A DNA stretch of 64,000 nucleotides, from the IMG/VR virus record IMGVR_UViG_3300009079_000013. One strand, given 5' to 3'. The position numbers and the translations under genes were made by a program. Under the pieces are notes generated by a model. The model was not told the DNA's origin. It saw only the letters and a program-made list of their open reading frames with translations, and searched no databases. Positions 608-53,152 of the stretch are shown piece after piece (the first letter of the stretch is position 1; each line of letters starts with the position of its first letter). This DNA comes from a virus.

Positions 608-634
608 GAACCTAAAATATAGTTTTTGTATAAT
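608..634 (+). promoter_or_regulatory. Phage early/middle promoter motif (AAACY-N15-16-GTATAAT class)
   Basis: GAACC-N15-GTATAAT 7 nt before ATG 642; same motif recurs before many non-structural genes. Confidence 0.65.
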
Positions 635-641
635 ATAAAAC

Positions 642-31936: not shown

Positions 31937-31964
31937 AAACCTATGAAAAGTATTTTAGTTTAAT
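31937..31964 (+). promoter_or_regulatory. Early/middle promoter motif
   Basis: AAACC-N16-GTTTAAT 5 nt before ATG. Confidence 0.6.
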
Positions 31965-31969
31965 ATAAC

Positions 31970-32806
31970 ATGAACACTACAAAAGAAAATGTAAATACTT
32001 TTAAAAAATTTAAAGACTCTAATTTTAAGTTTAATAAAGAACTACATAAATATACATATCATGATGAATCTACAGGTAAAGTTTTACAAACCTTTAAATC
32101 TGTTTCTGGGTTTGCTGATAATTTTAAAGAACCTTTTAATGGTAGGCTTATTGCTGAAAACCTTTCAACTAGCAATCCTCTTTATGGAAAACCCGTAGAT
32201 GATATACTTGCGATATGGAAAGAAAAAGGAAGAGTAGCAGCTGACTTGGGAACAACTGTTCATGAATGGATAGAAGATTTTTATAAAACAATAACTGATG
32301 ATAATATATTTGCTACAATAGATCACCAAAACCTATTAAAAAATCCAATTGAATTAGAAGACAAAGAAGCTGTGTCAAGGGTAGAAAAATTTAGAACATA
32401 TTACACCGAAAGGTTAACTTCTTTAAAATCAGTTTTTCAAGAAGTCAAGGTTTTTTCTAGAAAATGGGGATATGCAGGAACGATAGACGGTATATTTTCT
32501 ATTGATGGTGAAAGGTTAATAATATGTGATTATAAAACCAATAAAGAGTTTACAACAGATTCTGATTGGAAAGGAAGTAGAAATAGACTATTTGAACCGT
32601 TTAACGATACTTTTGATAATAAGCATAATAATTACTCTATACAGGTCAGTCTATATAGGCTAATAATAGAAGAAGAATGTGGTATAGAGATGCAAGATCC
32701 TTTTCTACTTTGGATACCTCCAAAAGGACCTTGTAAAGCATTTAAAGCAAAAGATTATAGAAATAAAATAAGAACATATTTAAATGATAAAAATTTAGTC
32801 ATATAA
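31970..32806 (+). CDS. PD-(D/E)XK (RecB/Cas4-like) exonuclease
   Basis: GTTVHEWIE, QEVKV, AGTIDG, CDYKT, YSIQVSLY. Confidence 0.85.
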   Translation: MNTTKENVNTFKKFKDSNFKFNKELHKYTYHDESTGKVLQTFKSVSGFADNFKEPFNGRLIAENLSTSNPLYGKPVDDILAIWKEKGRVAADLGTTVHEWIEDFYKTITDDNIFATIDHQNLLKNPIELEDKEAVSRVEKFRTYYTERLTSLKSVFQEVKVFSRKWGYAGTIDGIFSIDGERLIICDYKTNKEFTTDSDWKGSRNRLFEPFNDTFDNKHNNYSIQVSLYRLIIEEECGIEMQDPFLLWIPPKGPCKAFKAKDYRNKIRTYLNDKNLVI

Positions 32807-48807: not shown

Positions 48808-49386
48808 ATGAAAATGGCAGATATGAATAGCCTACCGCTTCCTTTACATAGAACTCTTATGTTTGCAAAGGACGTTAATTTAGAGTCAATTGAGGCTTTA
48901 TCTAGAAATATACTTAGGATAAATGAAGACGATGATCATCTTGAAAAATTGTACAAAGTCTACGATATAGATTATATCAGAAGACCCATTAAAATAATGA
49001 TAGATAGTTATGGAGGATATGTATATCAATGTATGGGATTACTTGGTATAATGGAAAAATCAGTTACTCCTGTGCATACCTATGCAACAGGTGCTGCAAT
49101 GTCCTGTGGTTTTATGATACTTATATCTGGACATAAAAGGTTTGCCTATAGACATGCTACTCCTATGTATCATCAAGTATCTACTGGTTTTTGGGGAAAA
49201 ACACAGGATATGGAAGAAAGTTATAAAGAAACTAAAAGACTTCAACAAAAATTTGAAAACATAACATTAGAATCAACAAAAATATCTAAAACTAAGTTAA
49301 AAGATATTCTTAAAACAAAGCAAGATTGGTACATGGATGCTAAAGAAGCTTTATCACATGGGGTAATAGATAAAATAATAGATTAA
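48808..49386 (+). CDS. clpP: ClpP-like serine protease
   Basis: IDSYGG, GAAMSCG (Ser), MYHQ (His), DWYMDAKEAL..GVID (Asp). Confidence 0.88.
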   Translation: MKMADMNSLPLPLHRTLMFAKDVNLESIEALSRNILRINEDDDHLEKLYKVYDIDYIRRPIKIMIDSYGGYVYQCMGLLGIMEKSVTPVHTYATGAAMSCGFMILISGHKRFAYRHATPMYHQVSTGFWGKTQDMEESYKETKRLQQKFENITLESTKISKTKLKDILKTKQDWYMDAKEALSHGVIDKIID

Positions 49387-49387
49387 T

Positions 49388-49609
49388 ATGAACAAAGAAT
49401 TATACATAATGCTAGAAACAATGGCTTTAGCAGAAATTGCAAAAGCTAAAATGAGTTTACACCTTTTAGGAGAAAAATCAGTTGGCATAGGAGACCATTC
49501 AACTGCTGATTTTTATAATAACGCAGACGAAGCTCTCGCTAAATTAGCCGAAGCTGAAGATAAACTACAATGCTTAGAAAAAAATTATACACAAAAAGTT
49601 AAACTTTAA
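49388..49609 (+). CDS. Small hypothetical phage protein
   Basis: 73 aa helical ORF with VGIGDH motif, coupled to clpP. Confidence 0.7.
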   Translation: MNKELYIMLETMALAEIAKAKMSLHLLGEKSVGIGDHSTADFYNNADEALAKLAEAEDKLQCLEKNYTQKVKL

Positions 49610-49656
49610 TAAAAACTTTAGTATAATATTTTACAAGTAAGAAAAACGTTCTTTAA
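49601..49656 (+). promoter_or_regulatory. Promoter plus boxA-like leader of the ncRNA
   Basis: AAACT-N15-GTATAAT (49601-49627); CGTTCTTTAA (49647-49656) resembles boxA. Confidence 0.65.
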
Positions 49657-49662
49657 TTTATT

Positions 49663-50084
49663 GGTGAAAGGTGTCAGATATCGACGGATTGATGACATTG
49701 ATATGTGCCTGAATAATAAGTGAAGCGAAGCTTATAAAGGAATGTATTAGATCGATGGATCGCAATTAAAGTCCTATACCAAGGACCTACTCTAATGAGA
49801 ATATTGAACTAAGATAGCTCTTAGAATACATGTACATAATAACAAGAATCTAAAAGATTCGCAAATTGTTTATAGGTAATACAAAAATCCTATTTAATGA
49901 CTGAATAACCATTACGTTTGCGTGGTAAGGTGTTTCTTAGACCATAGTGGTCCTAACGATGTGATGAACGAGTACAAGTTTAAAATGAGTTAGTTCTTTG
50001 ACAGAAGAAATAGAAAGCAACAATAATTTGTAGTAAACGATTAAGTTAGAGGTAATCTTTAATCCTCTCATATCATCTTTCACT
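49663..50084 (+). ncRNA. Large (~420 nt) multi-stem non-coding RNA, family not assigned
   Basis: No ORF; ends pair (GGTGAAAGG/TCTTTCACT; TGATATG/CATATCA); more than 10 nested stems; own promoter and terminator. Confidence 0.8.
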
Positions 50085-50094
50085 TTTTATATTT

Positions 50095-50123
50095 AAACCC
50101 AATCTTTTTAGATTGGGTTTTTT
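50095..50123 (+). terminator. Intrinsic terminator of ncRNA
   Basis: AAACCCAATC-ttttta-GATTGGGTTT plus Ts. Confidence 0.85.
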
Positions 50124-50165
50124 AGGTATACCTGATTTTTTTAAAATTCCTTTCTCTCTAAACTA

Positions 50166-50193
50166 AAAGAAGAGAGCAATTGCTCTCTTCTTT
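50166..50193 (-). terminator. Terminator of tail sheath gene
   Basis: Perfect 28-bp palindrome AAAGAAGAGAGCAATTGCTCTCTTCTTT ~20 nt past the sheath stop. Confidence 0.8.
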
Positions 50194-50215
50194 ATACTTT
50201 CGTATGAATGTTTAG

Positions 50216-53152
50216 TTAGAAACTTGGAGTAAATCCAGTTGAATCTGAGCTTAATCCTCCACCAACTCTAGTAATAGTAATTCTATTGATGAATTTATGA
50301 ATTCCTCTTGGGAAGTCTACACTAATATCAACAATCGCAGTATTAGCTTCAATTACTTCATTAGTATTATTCTCAGTATCAAATTGTACTGTATAGCCTT
50401 GAAGACCTCTAGCATTTACAACTGAGTCCATGTAGTTTTCTAATATTCCTTTAACTCTTAATCTTGTGATTTCATCATTAAAGTCAAATAAGAAATTAAC
50501 TAATATTTGTTCAATGTCTCTTTCAATAGTAGATAGGTTATCTCTAATATGAGCATTGTTAAGAGCTGATTTAACTCTTTGGTATGCAGTGTTATTACTA
50601 AATACTGTAATTCCAAATCCTCTTCTTTTAACTATTAAATTATGACCAACTGGCTCTAAGAAATCTCTATCGTCATTTGTTAAATCATATTCTAATCCAA
50701 CTACTTCTGGATCAGTGATAATAGCTCTTTTACCAGCAGTAATCAAGAAAGGTGTTCCGTTCTTAAATTTTCTAACATACGCGTTAGATACATAAGCTGC
50801 TGGTGGAACTGATTTAGTTTTACCGCCTTCTCTAATAAGCATGTTTGGCATTACAAAATATTCGTAAGATGACAATGGCACTCCATTAACATCTTCATCT
50901 GCAAATTTAAAGGTATAGCTTGGATTCAAACTTAAATTACCTCCTTTAGAAATATATTCTGTTGAAACTAATTTATTTACAACGTTAACAAAACTAGGGT
51001 CAACTGATTTTTCAAATTGTTCAAATGAAGGATCGTTTAATATCGCCATGACCTTTCCATTCATTGCTGCTATTTTTCCAAGATGATACTTAGAAGATTG
51101 AGATAGATCTCCTTCATAAGAATCTACTATATATCTATAATCTATAGTTTCTCTGTCTGAAAGAGCAGAAGGTATTGCTGTATATTTAAACAGATACTCT
51201 AATATCTCTTTTTGTCTATCTGATGTAGAGTTAGGTAACAATCCAGTTCTTATTTTGAATCCTTTCATACATTGTCCCTTTAAAGAACCTACAAAGTTTG
51301 CAATTCCTTTATATACGGATATTGTATTTCCAGTAGTGTCTAATCCATCTACTTCGTTTATGCTAGGTACCATAGTAGTAATAACATATTCTAACCTATA
51401 AGGGCTTAAATCTTCGCTTGATGTAATTGAAATTATCTTAAGCAGCCTAGGTCTTGAATCTCCTACTAATCTAGCTTTAATATAGTGATTAACTTTTAAA
51501 AATTCATCAATCTCTGCTTTTTCAGCAGCATTAGCTGTATTTATACCTAATACTAATTTATTAGGTTGTTGTATTTGATAATCAGTAAAATAATCAGTGT
51601 CAGTTAAATCAAATACCTTTTTAAAATCTGAACCTGAATCTAATACATATTTTATGTAGTCGTCTACGTTATTATACGTATTTACTGCGATTCTATTTAA
51701 TAAACTGGAATCCTGATATGTGTAAATCTTAATGTAAGAATAATCATTTCCTCCAAGGTCTTGTATAAAACCATCTTCTATTTTAGAATAATAAGTGTTT
51801 ACGCCATCAATAGATTCGTCTCCTGTTCTTAAGAAGCCATCTGTATATGCTTTATAAACTTTACTATCTTCAAAAGCTATTAAATAATCATCAGCAGCTG
51901 TCCATTTAATTAAACTACTTGTTGTTGCTCCAGTAAAATCATTCTCTGGCAAAGACAAATCTATTTTGTAAATAAGTTCCTTGTCTCCAGGTTTACTATA
52001 ACTCAATATGTCTATTAAAGGTGTACTATCTGCTACAGTTCCAGATGGTTCAAAACCACCGTTGTCTATTGAATATACATCGTCTGAATCTAATTCATCA
52101 TATCCATGTCCTATTGTATCAACTCTATGTGTTTCCATGTTGATATCGCTAAAATTGTCGTCTTCTAAGTCTATCAAATCTAATTTATCTGCGTCTAATG
52201 CACATAATAAACCGGTAGTGGCAAATAATCTATTTACTAATGAATCAACTGATGCAATAGTACCACTTTGATCTTTAAATTCTGGTATCAAACATCCTGT
52301 TACTCTAGCGATTGCTTGTACTTCTTGTAAAGCTAAGAATGAAGGTACTTGACTGTCTATCAATCCGCTTTCATCAAAGAATTGACTAAATAGAGCATCT
52401 TTTGATAATCTAATGTTATTAGACCAATCTCCATCTACTATGATTACTTCTACGAAATAATCTGAAATAAAATCGTCTGCGCTAACAAAATTAGGAAAGT
52501 CAATTGATTCTCCAAAACTAGCATACCATTCTTTAGCTGTTACATCAAATCCAGTAACGGTTGCTTTTCTAACCCACACCGTCATATTAGTGTTTCCTGT
52601 ATTAGCAAAACTTAATATTTTATTTGATGCGATAGATGCGTTACCAAATGAACTAGGATTTAATATATAATCATCTCCTAATGCTAAGTTTTTTGATTTA
52701 TTTAAGCTTTCATCATCCGCGAACCACAGTTTTCTCTTGTTAAAGAATTCAACTAGTGGATATTGATATGGTGCAGAGTCTTCATTATTAGAAGAAGATT
52801 CAGTATTATATGTTGTAAAGTAGGCTTTATCTAAGTTAGCAACAACGTCAGTGTCTGTATCTAAAGGCAGTACATTCATTGCAAAAACGGGACCTTCCCG
52901 TAATGCTACTTCTATTGTTCTATGAAAGTAACTTCCTTGTTTTTCTAATTGAGTATCTCTGTCTCCATATACTGCGTTTAATGTACGTACATCGTTTATT
53001 AATACCACTGTATTAAAAGGACCTTTTCTACTAGATCCTATGATTAATCTTCCTGTCGTAAGCGGTAGAGCTAGACCTTGACTTTGGTCTATTTCAACTG
53101 TATACACACCAGATGATTTAAAGTTGTTTAAGTTTAATACTTTTTCGGCCAT
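50216..53152 (-). CDS. gp18: Contractile tail sheath protein, T4 gp18-like
   Basis: SSGVYTVEID, KGPFNT, VPPAAYV, TAGKRA, SALNNAHIR, FLFDFNDEITR, ENNTNEVIEAN; ATAAATA at 53174-53180. Confidence 0.93.
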   Translation of the reverse strand: MAEKVLNLNNFKSSGVYTVEIDQSQGLALPLTTGRLIIGSSRKGPFNTVVLINDVRTLNAVYGDRDTQLEKQGSYFHRTIEVALREGPVFAMNVLPLDTDTDVVANLDKAYFTTYNTESSSNNEDSAPYQYPLVEFFNKRKLWFADDESLNKSKNLALGDDYILNPSSFGNASIASNKILSFANTGNTNMTVWVRKATVTGFDVTAKEWYASFGESIDFPNFVSADDFISDYFVEVIIVDGDWSNNIRLSKDALFSQFFDESGLIDSQVPSFLALQEVQAIARVTGCLIPEFKDQSGTIASVDSLVNRLFATTGLLCALDADKLDLIDLEDDNFSDINMETHRVDTIGHGYDELDSDDVYSIDNGGFEPSGTVADSTPLIDILSYSKPGDKELIYKIDLSLPENDFTGATTSSLIKWTAADDYLIAFEDSKVYKAYTDGFLRTGDESIDGVNTYYSKIEDGFIQDLGGNDYSYIKIYTYQDSSLLNRIAVNTYNNVDDYIKYVLDSGSDFKKVFDLTDTDYFTDYQIQQPNKLVLGINTANAAEKAEIDEFLKVNHYIKARLVGDSRPRLLKIISITSSEDLSPYRLEYVITTMVPSINEVDGLDTTGNTISVYKGIANFVGSLKGQCMKGFKIRTGLLPNSTSDRQKEILEYLFKYTAIPSALSDRETIDYRYIVDSYEGDLSQSSKYHLGKIAAMNGKVMAILNDPSFEQFEKSVDPSFVNVVNKLVSTEYISKGGNLSLNPSYTFKFADEDVNGVPLSSYEYFVMPNMLIREGGKTKSVPPAAYVSNAYVRKFKNGTPFLITAGKRAIITDPEVVGLEYDLTNDDRDFLEPVGHNLIVKRRGFGITVFSNNTAYQRVKSALNNAHIRDNLSTIERDIEQILVNFLFDFNDEITRLRVKGILENYMDSVVNARGLQGYTVQFDTENNTNEVIEANTAIVDISVDFPRGIHKFINRITITRVGGGLSSDSTGFTPSF

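What the first reader, a model, noticed from the sequence alone, without database searches (positions are those of the whole stretch)
49601..50123. Stand-alone ~420-nt ornate non-coding RNA with its own promoter, boxA-like leader and terminator
Seen: the largest ORF-free gap in the window forms a full transcription unit (promoter 49601-49627, CGTTCTTTAA 49647-56, terminator 50095-50123). The ends pair (49663-71 with 50076-84; 49699-705 with 50069-75). They enclose TGTCA/TGACA, ATAAG/CTTAT, a junction closed by ATGTATT/AATACAT (49742/49825; arms GATC/GATC, GTCCT/AGGAC, CTAAGA/TCTTAG), a second domain between two GTAC sites (49832/49972; arms AACAA/TTGTT, GAATCT/AGATTC, ATAGG/CCTAT, ACCA/TGGT, GACCA/TGGTC) and AGAGG/CCTCT. 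Known: some phages carry large ornate RNAs of unknown function (ROOL, GOLLD). Inference: an abundant stable phage RNA, either a compact relative of those or a new class. It lacks tRNA, tmRNA, RNase P and intron signatures.
Basis: partly seen in the sequence, partly recalled or inferred. Interest (0 to 1): 0.9.

Follow-up and report, generated by a model that had tools for sequence, protein, structure and literature searches.

The report
Double-core manA-type phage RNA gene
The gene-free stretch is a real, self-contained gene for a folded RNA of about 420 bases in an uncultured marine giant phage: an enlarged, uncatalogued two-core relative of the known "manA" RNA, which a 2026 preprint reports to build RNA-only cages in vitro.

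Summary
Window 49610-50215 is the largest ORF-free gap, and 49663-50084 folds into a closed multi-helix RNA. It folds better than shuffles (z -3.1). It is conserved in 19 non-redundant uncultured marine phage sequences. Compensatory changes occur in 44 of 131 pairs in the window's clade and 38 of 97 pairs in a distant clade.

It is neither a ROOL/GOLLD relative nor a new class. Both halves hit Rfam manA (RF01745) below the gathering score of 55.2 bits (36.7 and 34.5 bits). In homologues from other clades the second core passes it (61-71 bits).

The RNA is one manA frame (5' hairpin, closing helix P1) holding two manA cores. They are interlocked: the 'P4' helix is long-range, not local.

It has a recurring phage promoter, a leader matching the boxA consensus, and its own terminator. 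Downstream neighbours differ between relatives (convergent tail sheath gene here, tRNAs or unrelated genes elsewhere). So it acts as a gene of its own, not a 5'-UTR switch.

One loop-loop complementarity (7 bp) covaries across clades. I map it to a kissing contact that builds manA pentamers in a 2026 cryo-EM preprint, so self-assembly is my preferred but untested mechanism.

This scan has found double-core manA-like RNAs before on other DNA.

The parts
49601..49627 (+). Promoter-like site: AAACTT (49601-06), 15-nt spacer, TATAAT (49622-27, within TAGTATAATAT). The start is predicted near 49634.
   Evidence: The same AAAC[CT][TA]-N13-18-T[AT]TAAT layout occurs 13 times in the window against 6.5 +/- 2.7 in shuffles. 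Sites lie directly upstream of genes at 31937, 38673, 44973, 46359, 63776 and 29017(-). It is conserved in L001, L176, L186, L002 and L036. No transcript data.
49648..49657 (+). boxA-like leader element GTTCTTTAAT.
   Evidence: It matches GYTCTTTAANA, the gamma-proteobacterial boxA consensus (PMC5725501), at all specified positions but the last. A GTTYTTTRA-type element sits at the same leader position in the clades: GTTCTTTAA/GA in A and L036, GTTCTTTGA in L192, GTTTTTTGA in B, and a weaker ATTTTTGA in C. The 9-mer alone is not rare: 12 in the window against 5.4 expected.
49663..49670 (+). Outer stem, 5' strand (GGTGAAAG). It pairs with 50077-50084.
   Evidence: It is invariant in the window's clade (helix 1). 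Other clades use different complementary sequences: GGAAG/CTTCC in L192, AATTG-A-GAAATC/GATTTC-CAATT in B, TTGGAAT/ATTCCAA in C.
49671..49698 (+). P0 hairpin (GTGTCA..TGACAT, inner ATC/GAT, loop GACG). It equals the 5' hairpin of manA with its conserved GAcg loop.
   Evidence: Rfam model positions 1-16. The GACG loop is seen in Weinberg's manA alignment. Three compensatory pairs (helices 2-3).
49700..49705 (+). P1, 5' strand GATATG. It pairs with CATATC 50069-50074 and encloses both cores.
   Evidence: Cross-clade covariation: GATATG/CATATC (A), GATGCG/CGCATC (L192), GGGAT/ATCCC (B/C), GGAAT/ATTCC (L161). It is the P1 position of the manA model.
49706..49831 (+). manA core 1: TGCCTGAATAA, P2a hairpin 49716-35, TAAAGG, and the P3 junction ATGTATT/AATACAT with four hairpins.
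   Evidence: Rfam manA 36.7 bits, E 2.8e-8, for 49679-49898. The same unit scores 47.3 bits in L002 and 34.9 bits in L036. Compensatory pairs in helices 6, 7, 9-12.
49834..49871 (+). 5' half of the long-range 'P4': a1 49834-37, inner hairpin GAATC-TAAAA-GATTC 49846-60, b1 AATTGTTT 49864-71.
   Evidence: b1 pairs with AAACGATT 50035-42: 8 bp, perfect in L001/L176/L186/L002 and one G-U in the window. In clades B/C the equivalent a1.a2 (8 bp) and b1.b2 (7 bp) helices carry compensatory changes and fold at -15 to -22 kcal/mol against -8 +/- 2.4 for shuffles. a1.a2 is weak in the window (3 of 4 pairs).
49853..49859 (+). AAAGATT in the inner hairpin of P4, the candidate kissing-loop partner of 50054-50060.
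   Evidence: It is the only loop pair with at least 5 Watson-Crick bp in every sequence of both alignments. It covaries: AAAGAUU.AAUCUUU (window clade), UUAUAGAA.UUCUAUAA (L036), AACGAUU.AAUCGUU (B), AGCGAUU.AAUCGCU (L169), GAACU.AGUUC (L207).
49872..49893 (+). P5 hairpin of core 1 (ATAGG-TAATACAAAAAT-CCTAT). It is manA's GGUA..AAUCC hairpin.
   Evidence: (helix 16, two compensatory pairs).
49898..50016 (+). manA core 2: TGACTGAATAA, P2a hairpin, TAAGGTG, and the P3 junction TTTCT/AGAAA with three hairpins. The loop GAGTACAA (49970-77) is invariant even where its stem has changed.
   Evidence: Rfam manA 34.5 bits, E 3.8e-7, for 49898-50068. The homologous unit scores 61.2-70.8 bits (gathering score 55.2) in clades B/C. 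Compensatory pairs in helices 19-22.
50017..50046 (+). Small local hairpin 50017-34, then the 3' half of the long-range P4: b2 AAACGATT 50035-42 and a2 50043-46.
   Evidence: (helices 13, 15, 23).
50048..50068 (+). P5 hairpin of core 2 (AGAGG-TAATCTTTAAT-CCTCT). Its loop holds AATCTTT at 50054-60.
   Evidence: (helix 24).
50069..50084 (+). 3' strands of P1 (CATATC 50069-74) and of the outer stem (CTTTCACT 50077-84).
50095..50123 (+). Intrinsic terminator of the RNA gene: AACCCAATCT/AGATTGGGTT followed by a T run.
   Evidence: It folds. The stem is replaced by AAGGGAAT../..TTTTCCCTT in L002, and it varies yet stays paired in L176 and L186. It is separate from the palindromic terminator of the convergent sheath gene at about 50160-50195.

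Best explanation
49601-50123 is an independent gene for a non-coding RNA that is a double-core variant of the manA RNA (Rfam RF01745).

**Transcription (inferred).** It starts at a phage promoter (AAACTT-N15-TATAAT). It passes a boxA-like leader that probably recruits the host Nus factors, as in rRNA operons, so that the untranslated transcript escapes Rho. It stops at its own terminator.

**Fold (shown by comparison).** The mature core (49663-50084, 422 nt) has paired ends, one manA 5' hairpin and one closing helix P1. P1 encloses two manA cores, each with the CUGAAUAA/UAARG junction, a multi-hairpin P3 junction and a GGUAA..AAUCC hairpin. The cores are interlocked, not merely tandem. The strands at the 'P4' position of core 1 pair with those of core 2, so core 2 sits as an insertion in the P4 helix of core 1.

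**Mode of action (inferred).** It works in trans as a folded RNA particle, not as a 5'-UTR switch. It keeps a covarying 7-bp complementarity between the P4 hairpin loop and the last P5 loop. In single-core manA RNAs this contact is intermolecular and builds pentamers. So it most likely self-assembles into a closed homo-oligomer in the infected cell. What the particle does for the phage is not known.
For: **Family.**
- Both halves match RF01745: 36.7 bits (E 2.8e-8) and 34.5 bits (E 3.8e-7).
- In L002 the two adjacent units score 47.3 and 25.9 bits.
- In clades B/C, which share the same two-core layout, core 2 scores 61.2-70.8 bits. That is above the gathering score of 55.2.

**Structure.**
- The curated model is 95.8% paired over 6 sequences. 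44 of 131 pairs carry compensatory changes, against 11.8 +/- 2.7 in shuffles and at most 9 when partners are slid.
- In 11 sequences of B/C it is 98.3% paired. 38 of 97 pairs are compensatory, against 15 +/- 2.3 in shuffles and at most 5 when slid.
- The long-range P4 is supported.
- P1 and the outer stem covary between clades.
- Many conserved G-U pairs would be A-C on the other strand. The + strand also folds better.

**Stand-alone gene.**
- It has a promoter motif shared with other genes of the phage.
- A terminator or terminator-like hairpin follows the RNA in the clades.
- The downstream neighbour differs between relatives: the convergent tail sheath gene here and in L076; tRNA-Ala/Glu/Gln in L175, L176 and L186; an exonuclease-like gene in L002; gp32 in clade B; tRNA-Gly in clade C.

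**boxA.**

**Assembly.**
- Preprint 10.64898/2026.07.01.735769 reports pentamer-based decamers and a 60-mer cage of manA RNAs held by L5-L7' and L8-L9' kissing loops.
- The P4-loop/P5-loop complementarity is the only one conserved in all sequences, and it covaries.
Against: - No transcript evidence could be obtained. The start, ends, abundance and processing are all inferred.
- The window's own units fall below Rfam's gathering score.
- The comparative structure is about 24 kcal/mol above the thermodynamic MFE.
- In the window the a1.a2 helix is weak, and a local AACAA/TTGTT alternative exists. The long-range P4 therefore rests mainly on relatives.
- Equating the covarying loops with the preprint's L8-L9' contact rests on my own numbering of helices. 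That numbering is anchored only by L6 being the GNRA loop. The figures were not available.
- The other published interface (GUGGUG/ACCA, L5-L7') has no counterpart in the window's clade.
- The cage work is in vitro, at high RNA and Mg concentrations, and is an un-reviewed preprint.
- The boxA 9-mer is common in this AT-rich DNA.
- Only about 4 clades were sampled, so compensatory cells are not independent events.
Confidence: 0.7

Rival explanations
1. Tandem riboswitch or cis-regulator. Two manA aptamers sense a metabolite and control read-through of the terminator at 50095-50123 into downstream genes, as manA was originally proposed to act in 5' UTRs.
For: manA was classed as a riboswitch candidate because it lies upstream of non-homologous genes (PMC2864571). 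Tandem aptamers are known for other riboswitches (my knowledge). In L175, L176, L186, L147 and L207, co-oriented tRNA genes follow the terminator, and in L002 and L093 protein genes do.
Against: In the window and in L076 nothing co-oriented follows: the next gene is the convergent tail sheath gene. The downstream genes in relatives are unrelated to each other. The terminator does not overlap any strand of the conserved fold, and the RNA's ends are sealed by a long stem. There is therefore no visible expression platform. The two cores are interlocked, not independent aptamers.
Confidence: 0.1
2. A monomeric trans-acting RNA. The covarying loop-loop pairing forms within one molecule, and the compact RNA binds or sequesters a protein. 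Examples would be a host tRNA-related or defence factor, given the frequent tRNA neighbourhood, or a phage protein. It would do this without forming cages.
For: Loop-loop covariation cannot by itself tell cis from trans pairing. manA and these RNAs often sit beside tRNA genes (PMC3692125). Closed ends and many conserved loops (GACG, GAGUACAA) fit protein or tertiary contacts.
Against: In single-core manA the same two loops sit on adjacent hairpins and pair between molecules in the cryo-EM assemblies (by my mapping). The same adjacency holds here. No candidate partner protein is conserved next to the RNA.
Confidence: 0.18
3. Not an RNA. The inverted repeats act at the DNA level, for example as a replication origin, packaging site or protein-binding array, or the stretch is decaying spacer.
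For: It lies at a convergence point of transcription units. AT-rich DNA gives many chance hairpins: the - strand also folds at z = -2.47.
Against: There are 44 and 38 compensatory pairs in two clades, far above controls. Conserved G-U pairs work on one strand only. There are significant matches to an RNA covariance model. A promoter and terminator bracket the fold.
Confidence: 0.02

Closest known systems
manA RNA motif (Rfam RF01745; Weinberg et al. 2010, PMC2864571)
   Same: - 5' hairpin with a GACG loop, and the P1 closing helix.
- UGNCUGAAUAA...UAARG junction around a hairpin.
- P3 multi-hairpin junction.
- Terminal GGUAA..AAUCC hairpin.
- Complementary P4 and P5 loops.
- Found in marine T4-like and large phages, and often beside tRNA genes.
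   Different: - Two cores lie inside one P1 (about 420 nt against about 190 nt).
- P4 is a long-range helix between the cores, not a local hairpin.
- There is an extra outer stem.
- The window's units score 34-37 bits, below the gathering score of 55.2.
- It is a stand-alone transcription unit with a boxA-like leader and terminator, not a 5' UTR.
- The GUGGUG/ACCA loops are absent in the window's clade.
- No mention of tandem or double forms was found in the 2010 paper's held text or in the 2026 preprint.
manA homo-oligomeric cages (Ren et al. 2026 preprint, 10.64898/2026.07.01.735769)
   Same: The same family. The loop pair that I map to the L8-L9' kissing contact is kept and covaries.
   Different: The preprint used single-core RNAs under 200 nt, in vitro. 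Nothing is known for a chain with two cores. Its stoichiometry and symmetry would have to differ.
ROOL, GOLLD and OLE (large ornate RNAs; the first two are phage-associated and form RNA-only multimers)
   Same: A large, ornate, phage-borne, stand-alone RNA of unknown function. It possibly works alike as a self-assembling RNA particle.
   Different: No sequence or structure match to their Rfam models at any threshold. It is smaller and has a different architecture.
boxA/Nus-factor antitermination leaders of rRNA operons and lambdoid phages (consensus GYTCTTTAANA; PMC5725501)
   Same: GTTCTTTAAT lies about 15 nt after the predicted start, ahead of a long untranslated structured RNA. The position is conserved across clades.
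   Different: Not tested. The host and its own boxA are unknown. The motif is short and frequent in this genome.
Tandem riboswitch aptamers (for example the glycine riboswitch; my knowledge)
   Same: Two homologous folded units in one transcript.
   Different: No expression platform and no regulated gene. The units share helices instead of folding side by side.

Membership tests
manA RNA (RF01745) | Covariance-model score at or above the gathering score (55.2 bits) | tested here: not met
   Window core 1 scores 36.7 bits and core 2 scores 34.5 bits. Both are significant but below threshold. Homologous core 2 of clades B/C scores 61.2-70.8 bits. The double-core family therefore includes accepted manA members, with the window's copy a divergent one.
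manA RNA (RF01745) | Conserved junction UGaCUGAAUAA - hairpin - UAAgGug | tested here: met
   TGCCTGAATAA...TAAAGGAATG (49706-49744) and TGACTGAATAA...TAAGGTG (49898-49932).
manA RNA (RF01745) | P3 stem closing a junction of three hairpins | tested here: met
   ATGTATT/AATACAT closes four hairpins. TTTCT/AGAAA closes three. Both carry compensatory changes (helices 7-12 and 19-22).
manA RNA (RF01745) | Terminal P5 hairpin GGUA...AAUCC | tested here: met
   49872-93 and 50048-68.
manA RNA (RF01745) | 5' hairpin with a GAcg loop, and a P1 helix closing the motif | tested here: met
   Present once, shared by both cores: 49671-98 and 49700-05/50069-74. P1 covaries between clades.
manA RNA (RF01745) | Local P4 hairpin between P3 and P5 | tested here: not met
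   It is replaced by a long-range helix between the two cores. Only its distal hairpin (49846-60) is local.
manA RNA (RF01745) | Position in the 5' UTR of a gene (cis-regulatory annotation) | tested here: not met
   A terminator follows, then a convergent gene. Neighbours vary in relatives.
manA RNA (RF01745) | Pentamer-based self-assembly through kissing loops (preprint) | not testable with these tools
   Only the sequence prerequisite was tested: complementarity of the P4 and P5 loops is conserved and covaries.
ROOL / GOLLD / OLE | Match to the family covariance model | tested here: not met
   No hit at gathering score, nor at E up to 10 on the region or E up to 0.01 on the whole window.
tRNA, tmRNA, RNase P, group I/II introns | Match to ARAGORN or Rfam models | tested here: not met
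boxA (Nus-factor site) | Sequence GYTCTTTAANA near the 5' end of an untranslated transcript, plus NusB/NusE binding | tested here: inconclusive
   It matches at all specified positions but the last, and its position is conserved across clades. Binding is untestable here, and the 9-mer is frequent in the window.

The most novel reading that the evidence does not exclude
The double-core RNA is a covalently linked pair of manA protomers that assembles in infected cells into an RNA-only closed shell. One possibility is five chains forming a decamer-like particle; another is thirty chains forming a 60-core icosahedral cage. It would be made as a dedicated phage gene under rRNA-style antitermination. 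That would make it a natural, in vivo RNA compartment or scaffold used by large marine phages.
Probability: 0.15. Interest if true: 0.85.

Novelty: new variant of a known kind. Interest (0 to 1): 0.6.

Why it matters
manA has been an orphan 'riboswitch candidate' since 2010. Only in 2026 was it reported to form RNA-only cages in vitro.

This locus belongs to a conserved form that current catalogues miss, because it scores below Rfam's threshold. In this form two manA cores are interlocked in one chain. The RNA is expressed as a gene of its own with an rRNA-like leader, and it has no conserved gene to regulate. That argues against the riboswitch reading. It favours a trans-acting RNA particle in phage infection.

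The covarying loop pair 49853-59/50054-60 gives a precise handle for testing assembly. The double-core architecture also constrains how such particles could be built.

Tried and rejected
- **Cultured phages.** blastn of the element, of 12 kb around it, and of a clade-B copy against 50,697 phage records gave no match. No cultured phage carries a close copy.
- **Whole genome.** None is held for the window.
- **First pattern scan.** Only one of 119 was real.
- **More distant relatives by synteny.** L003-L012 (ClpP 54-78% identical) lack the RNA after ClpP. The whole contigs of L003, L004 and L009 have no manA match at E up to 1.
- **RNAalifold alternatives in the window's clade.** TATGTGCC with GGTGCATA, and GATTATG with CATATC, were both rejected. 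They are not kept in L036, L192 or clades B/C, whereas P1 is.
- **Full CM.** A covariance model of the full RNA was not built. The RNA exceeds the 400-column limit and the calibration time limit.
- **L5-L7' interface.** A counterpart of the published GUGGUG/ACCA interface was sought in the window's clade and not found.
- **Weinberg 2010 supplements.** They were searched for 'tandem' and for flanks of clade-B RNAs. Nothing was found, but only 200 of 438 files are held, and the manA alignment file was cut when stored.
- **Simple terminator scan.** It reported no terminator. The hairpin plus T run is nevertheless clear.
Full report
**Setting.** The window is AT-rich (about 30% G+C) DNA of an uncultured large myophage. 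Upstream of the finding lie a gp32-like SSB, an RNase H-like exonuclease, GroES, an IMPDH-like enzyme, a ClpP-like protease (48808-49386) and a 73-aa protein (49388-49609). Downstream, on the other strand, lies a 978-aa tail sheath gene (50216-53152). Its family B DNA polymerase is at most 34% identical to anything in 50,697 phage records. The nearest are uncultured huge phages, Chryseobacterium phages and Lak phages. Related IMG/VR contigs reach 232-294 kb. No whole genome is held for the window.

**The observation.**
- 49610-50215 has no + strand ORF of 30 aa or more and is the largest gap in the window.
- The + strand of 49635-50125 folds at -113.7 kcal/mol against -93.2 +/- 6.6 for shuffles (z = -3.09, 0 of 100 as good). 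The - strand gives z = -2.47.
- Two are not kept: a 'domain closed by two GTAC sites', and the local arm AACAA/TTGTT.

**What it is.**
- No Rfam family reaches its gathering score.
- With E-value reporting, the only meaningful hit in the whole window is manA (RF01745): 34.5 bits (E 3.8e-7) at 49898-50068.
- Searched alone, the 5' half gives a second, global manA match at 49679-49898: 36.7 bits, E 2.8e-8.
- In the closely related contig of L002 the same two adjacent units score 47.3 and 25.9 bits.
- By eye both halves carry the family's hallmarks. These are UGNCUGAAUAA - hairpin - UAARG, a stem closing a cluster of hairpins, and a terminal GGUAA...AAUCC hairpin.
- The 5' hairpin with a GACG loop and the closing helix P1 occur only once, around both halves.

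**Relatives.**
- Neighbour-gene searches gave only close copies: L001 at 92% and L002/L005 at 88%.
- A junction pattern specific to the link between the two cores (ATCCNNNTTNATGACTGAATAA) found more in IMG/VR and in metagenomes.
- After removing duplicates there are 19 RNAs in about four clades:
  - The window's clade A (window, L001, L176, L186, L002), with the more distant L036/L076.
  - L192.
  - Clade B (11 sequences, T4-like phages with gp32 and UvsX next to the RNA).
  - Clade C (L147, L207).
- In clades B and C the second core passes Rfam's manA threshold: 70.8, 62.7, 61.6, 61.2 and 61.2 bits against 55.2. The first core scores 20-24 bits.
- The double-core RNAs are therefore one homologous family that includes accepted manA members. 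The window's copy is a divergent one.

**Structure.**
- I curated one nested model guided by the manA model and RNAalifold.
- On clade A (6 sequences) 95.8% of cells pair. 44 of 131 pairs have compensatory changes, against 11.8 +/- 2.7 in shuffles and 5-9 when partners are slid.
- On clades B/C (11 sequences) 98.3% pair. 38 of 97 pairs are compensatory, against 15 +/- 2.3 in shuffles and 2-5 when slid.
- P1 changes between clades while staying complementary: GAUAUG/CAUAUC, GAUGCG/CGCAUC, GGGAU/AUCCC, GGAAU/AUUCC. The outer stem does the same.
- The two cores are not independent.
  - In B/C the strand just 3' of P3 of core 1 pairs with the strand just 5' of the last P5 (ACUUGAAG/CUUCAAGU).
  - The strand just 5' of the first P5 pairs with the strand just 3' of P3 of core 2 (ACCUUGU/ACAAGGU).
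  - Several of these pairs are compensatory. The duplexes fold at -15 to -22 kcal/mol against -8 +/- 2.4 for shuffles.
  - In the window's clade the equivalent helix is AAUYGUUU (49864-71) with AAACGAUU (50035-42).
  - In L036 it is CUUAGUUU with AGACUAAG.
- Core 2 thus sits as an insertion in the P4 helix of core 1.
- Caveats:
  - The comparative fold of the window RNA is about 24 kcal/mol above the MFE.
  - The short a1.a2 helix is weak in the window.
  - The sequences fall into few clades, so cell counts overstate independent events.

**Transcription unit.**
- The promoter-like site (AAACTT-N15-TATAAT, 49601-27) belongs to a layout found 13 times in the window against 6.5 +/- 2.7 in shuffles. 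Copies lie directly before the genes at 31970, 38718, 45037, 46384 and others. It is conserved in clade A.
- GTTCTTTAAT (49648-57) matches the boxA consensus GYTCTTTAANA of Baniulyte et al. 2017 (PMC5725501).
  - A GTTYTTTRA-type element holds the same leader position in the clades, weakest in clade C, although the surrounding leader differs.
  - The 9-mer alone is not rare here, so its conserved position carries the argument.
- The terminator hairpin 50095-50123 keeps pairing through changes on both sides in L002, L176 and L186.

**Cis or trans.** What follows the RNA differs between relatives:
- The convergent sheath gene here and in L076.
- tRNA-Ala/Glu/Gln inserted before the sheath gene in L175, L176 and L186.
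- An exonuclease-like gene in L002.
- gp32 in clade B.
- tRNA-Gly and a Mom-like gene in clade C.

No strand of the conserved fold overlaps the terminator. This does not fit a 5'-UTR switch for a given gene class, which was the original proposal for manA (PMC2864571). It fits the remark that manA often lies beside tRNA genes (PMC3692125).

**Mechanism.**
- A preprint of July 2026 (10.64898/2026.07.01.735769) reports cryo-EM structures of single-core manA RNAs. They form decamers, an octamer and a 60-subunit icosahedral cage.
- All are built from pentamers held by the kissing loops L5-L7' and L8-L9'. In another variant the contacts are L6-P6' (GNRA-receptor), L5-L7' and L3-L8'.
- I numbered the hairpins of the Rfam consensus from 5' to 3'. 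That makes L6 the GNRA loop, L8 the P4 loop (aCUguA) and L9 the P5 loop (uacAgu), which are complementary. This mapping is my inference.
- I compared all loops of the double-core RNAs with each other. The only pair with at least 5 Watson-Crick pairs in every sequence of both alignments is this one, the P4 inner hairpin with the last P5 loop.
- It covaries: AAAGAUU.AAUCUUU (window, 49853-59 with 50054-60), UUAUAGAA.UUCUAUAA (L036), AACGAUU.AAUCGUU (B), AGCGAUU.AAUCGCU (L169), GAACU.AGUUC (L207).
- As in single-core manA, the two hairpins are neighbours on the same junction. Pairing between molecules is therefore the more likely reading (inference).
- A counterpart of L5-L7' is missing in the window's clade.
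- I therefore favour a stand-alone RNA that self-assembles. I rate that step at about even odds. Family membership and the fold are well supported. The biological role remains unknown.

**Comparison and novelty.**
- It is not ROOL, GOLLD, OLE, tRNA, tmRNA, RNase P or an intron.
- It is a new variant of manA:
  - two interlocked cores in one frame;
  - an extra outer stem;
  - a boxA-like leader;
  - stand-alone expression;
  - scores below the Rfam threshold in this clade.
- Neither the held text of the 2010 paper nor the 2026 preprint mentions tandem or double forms.
- Earlier notes of this scan describe double-core manA-like RNAs in other phage genomes. I read them after reaching the same conclusion, and they are not independent evidence.

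Noticed in passing
window 623-641 and 31953-31969: TATAAT-type -10 elements of the recurring promoter motif end only 4-6 nt before the ATG of the ORFs at 642 and 31970. These genes may be transcribed as leaderless mRNAs.
   Followed up: no
window 50157-50203: A perfect palindrome, AAGAAGAGAGCAATTGCTCTCTTCTT, lies right after the stop of the convergent tail sheath gene. It is a second terminator, possibly bidirectional, and is distinct from the RNA's own terminator.
   Followed up: partly
L175 1575-2184; L176 1255-1868; L186 261-419: In the window's closest relatives a tRNA-Ala/Glu/Gln cluster sits between the RNA and the sheath gene. The window itself has no tRNA gene in its 64 kb.
   Followed up: partly
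window 49970-49977: The loop GAGTACAA, with the palindrome GUAC, is invariant in clade A. It stays so even in L036, where the supporting stem has changed. It is a candidate two-fold symmetric contact.
   Followed up: partly
A4 columns 43-51 (clades B/C, e.g. L058 about 1033-1041): The 5' hairpin loop of clades B/C carries an invariant 6-nt palindrome, UAAUUA, in place of the GACG loop. It could mediate loop-loop dimerisation.
   Followed up: no
A4 columns 283-285 and 385-399 (clades B/C): The P2a loop of core 2 and the internal loop of the long-range P4 are complementary, with a reciprocal swap: UCUGA/UCAGA in B and UCAGA/UCUGA in C and L169. This is a likely pseudoknot. It may be the 'pseudoknot?' drawn for manA in 2010.
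   Followed up: partly
L157 3304-3700: A different two-unit arrangement: two CUGAAUAA-hairpin-UAARG units about 210 nt apart. The second is closed by its own 12-bp stem (AGTTTTGAGTTG/CAACTCAAAACT), and no GGTAA..AATCC hairpins are obvious.
   Followed up: no
window 49993-50001: A second GTTCTTTGA (boxA-like 9-mer) lies inside the RNA, within the P3c hairpin of core 2. It is probably sequestered in the stem.
   Followed up: no
L076 6975-12962: In the more distant relative L076 the RNA sits between the IMPDH-like gene and the convergent sheath gene, without the ClpP-like and 73-aa genes. The RNA's place before the sheath gene is older than those two genes' presence there.
   Followed up: partly
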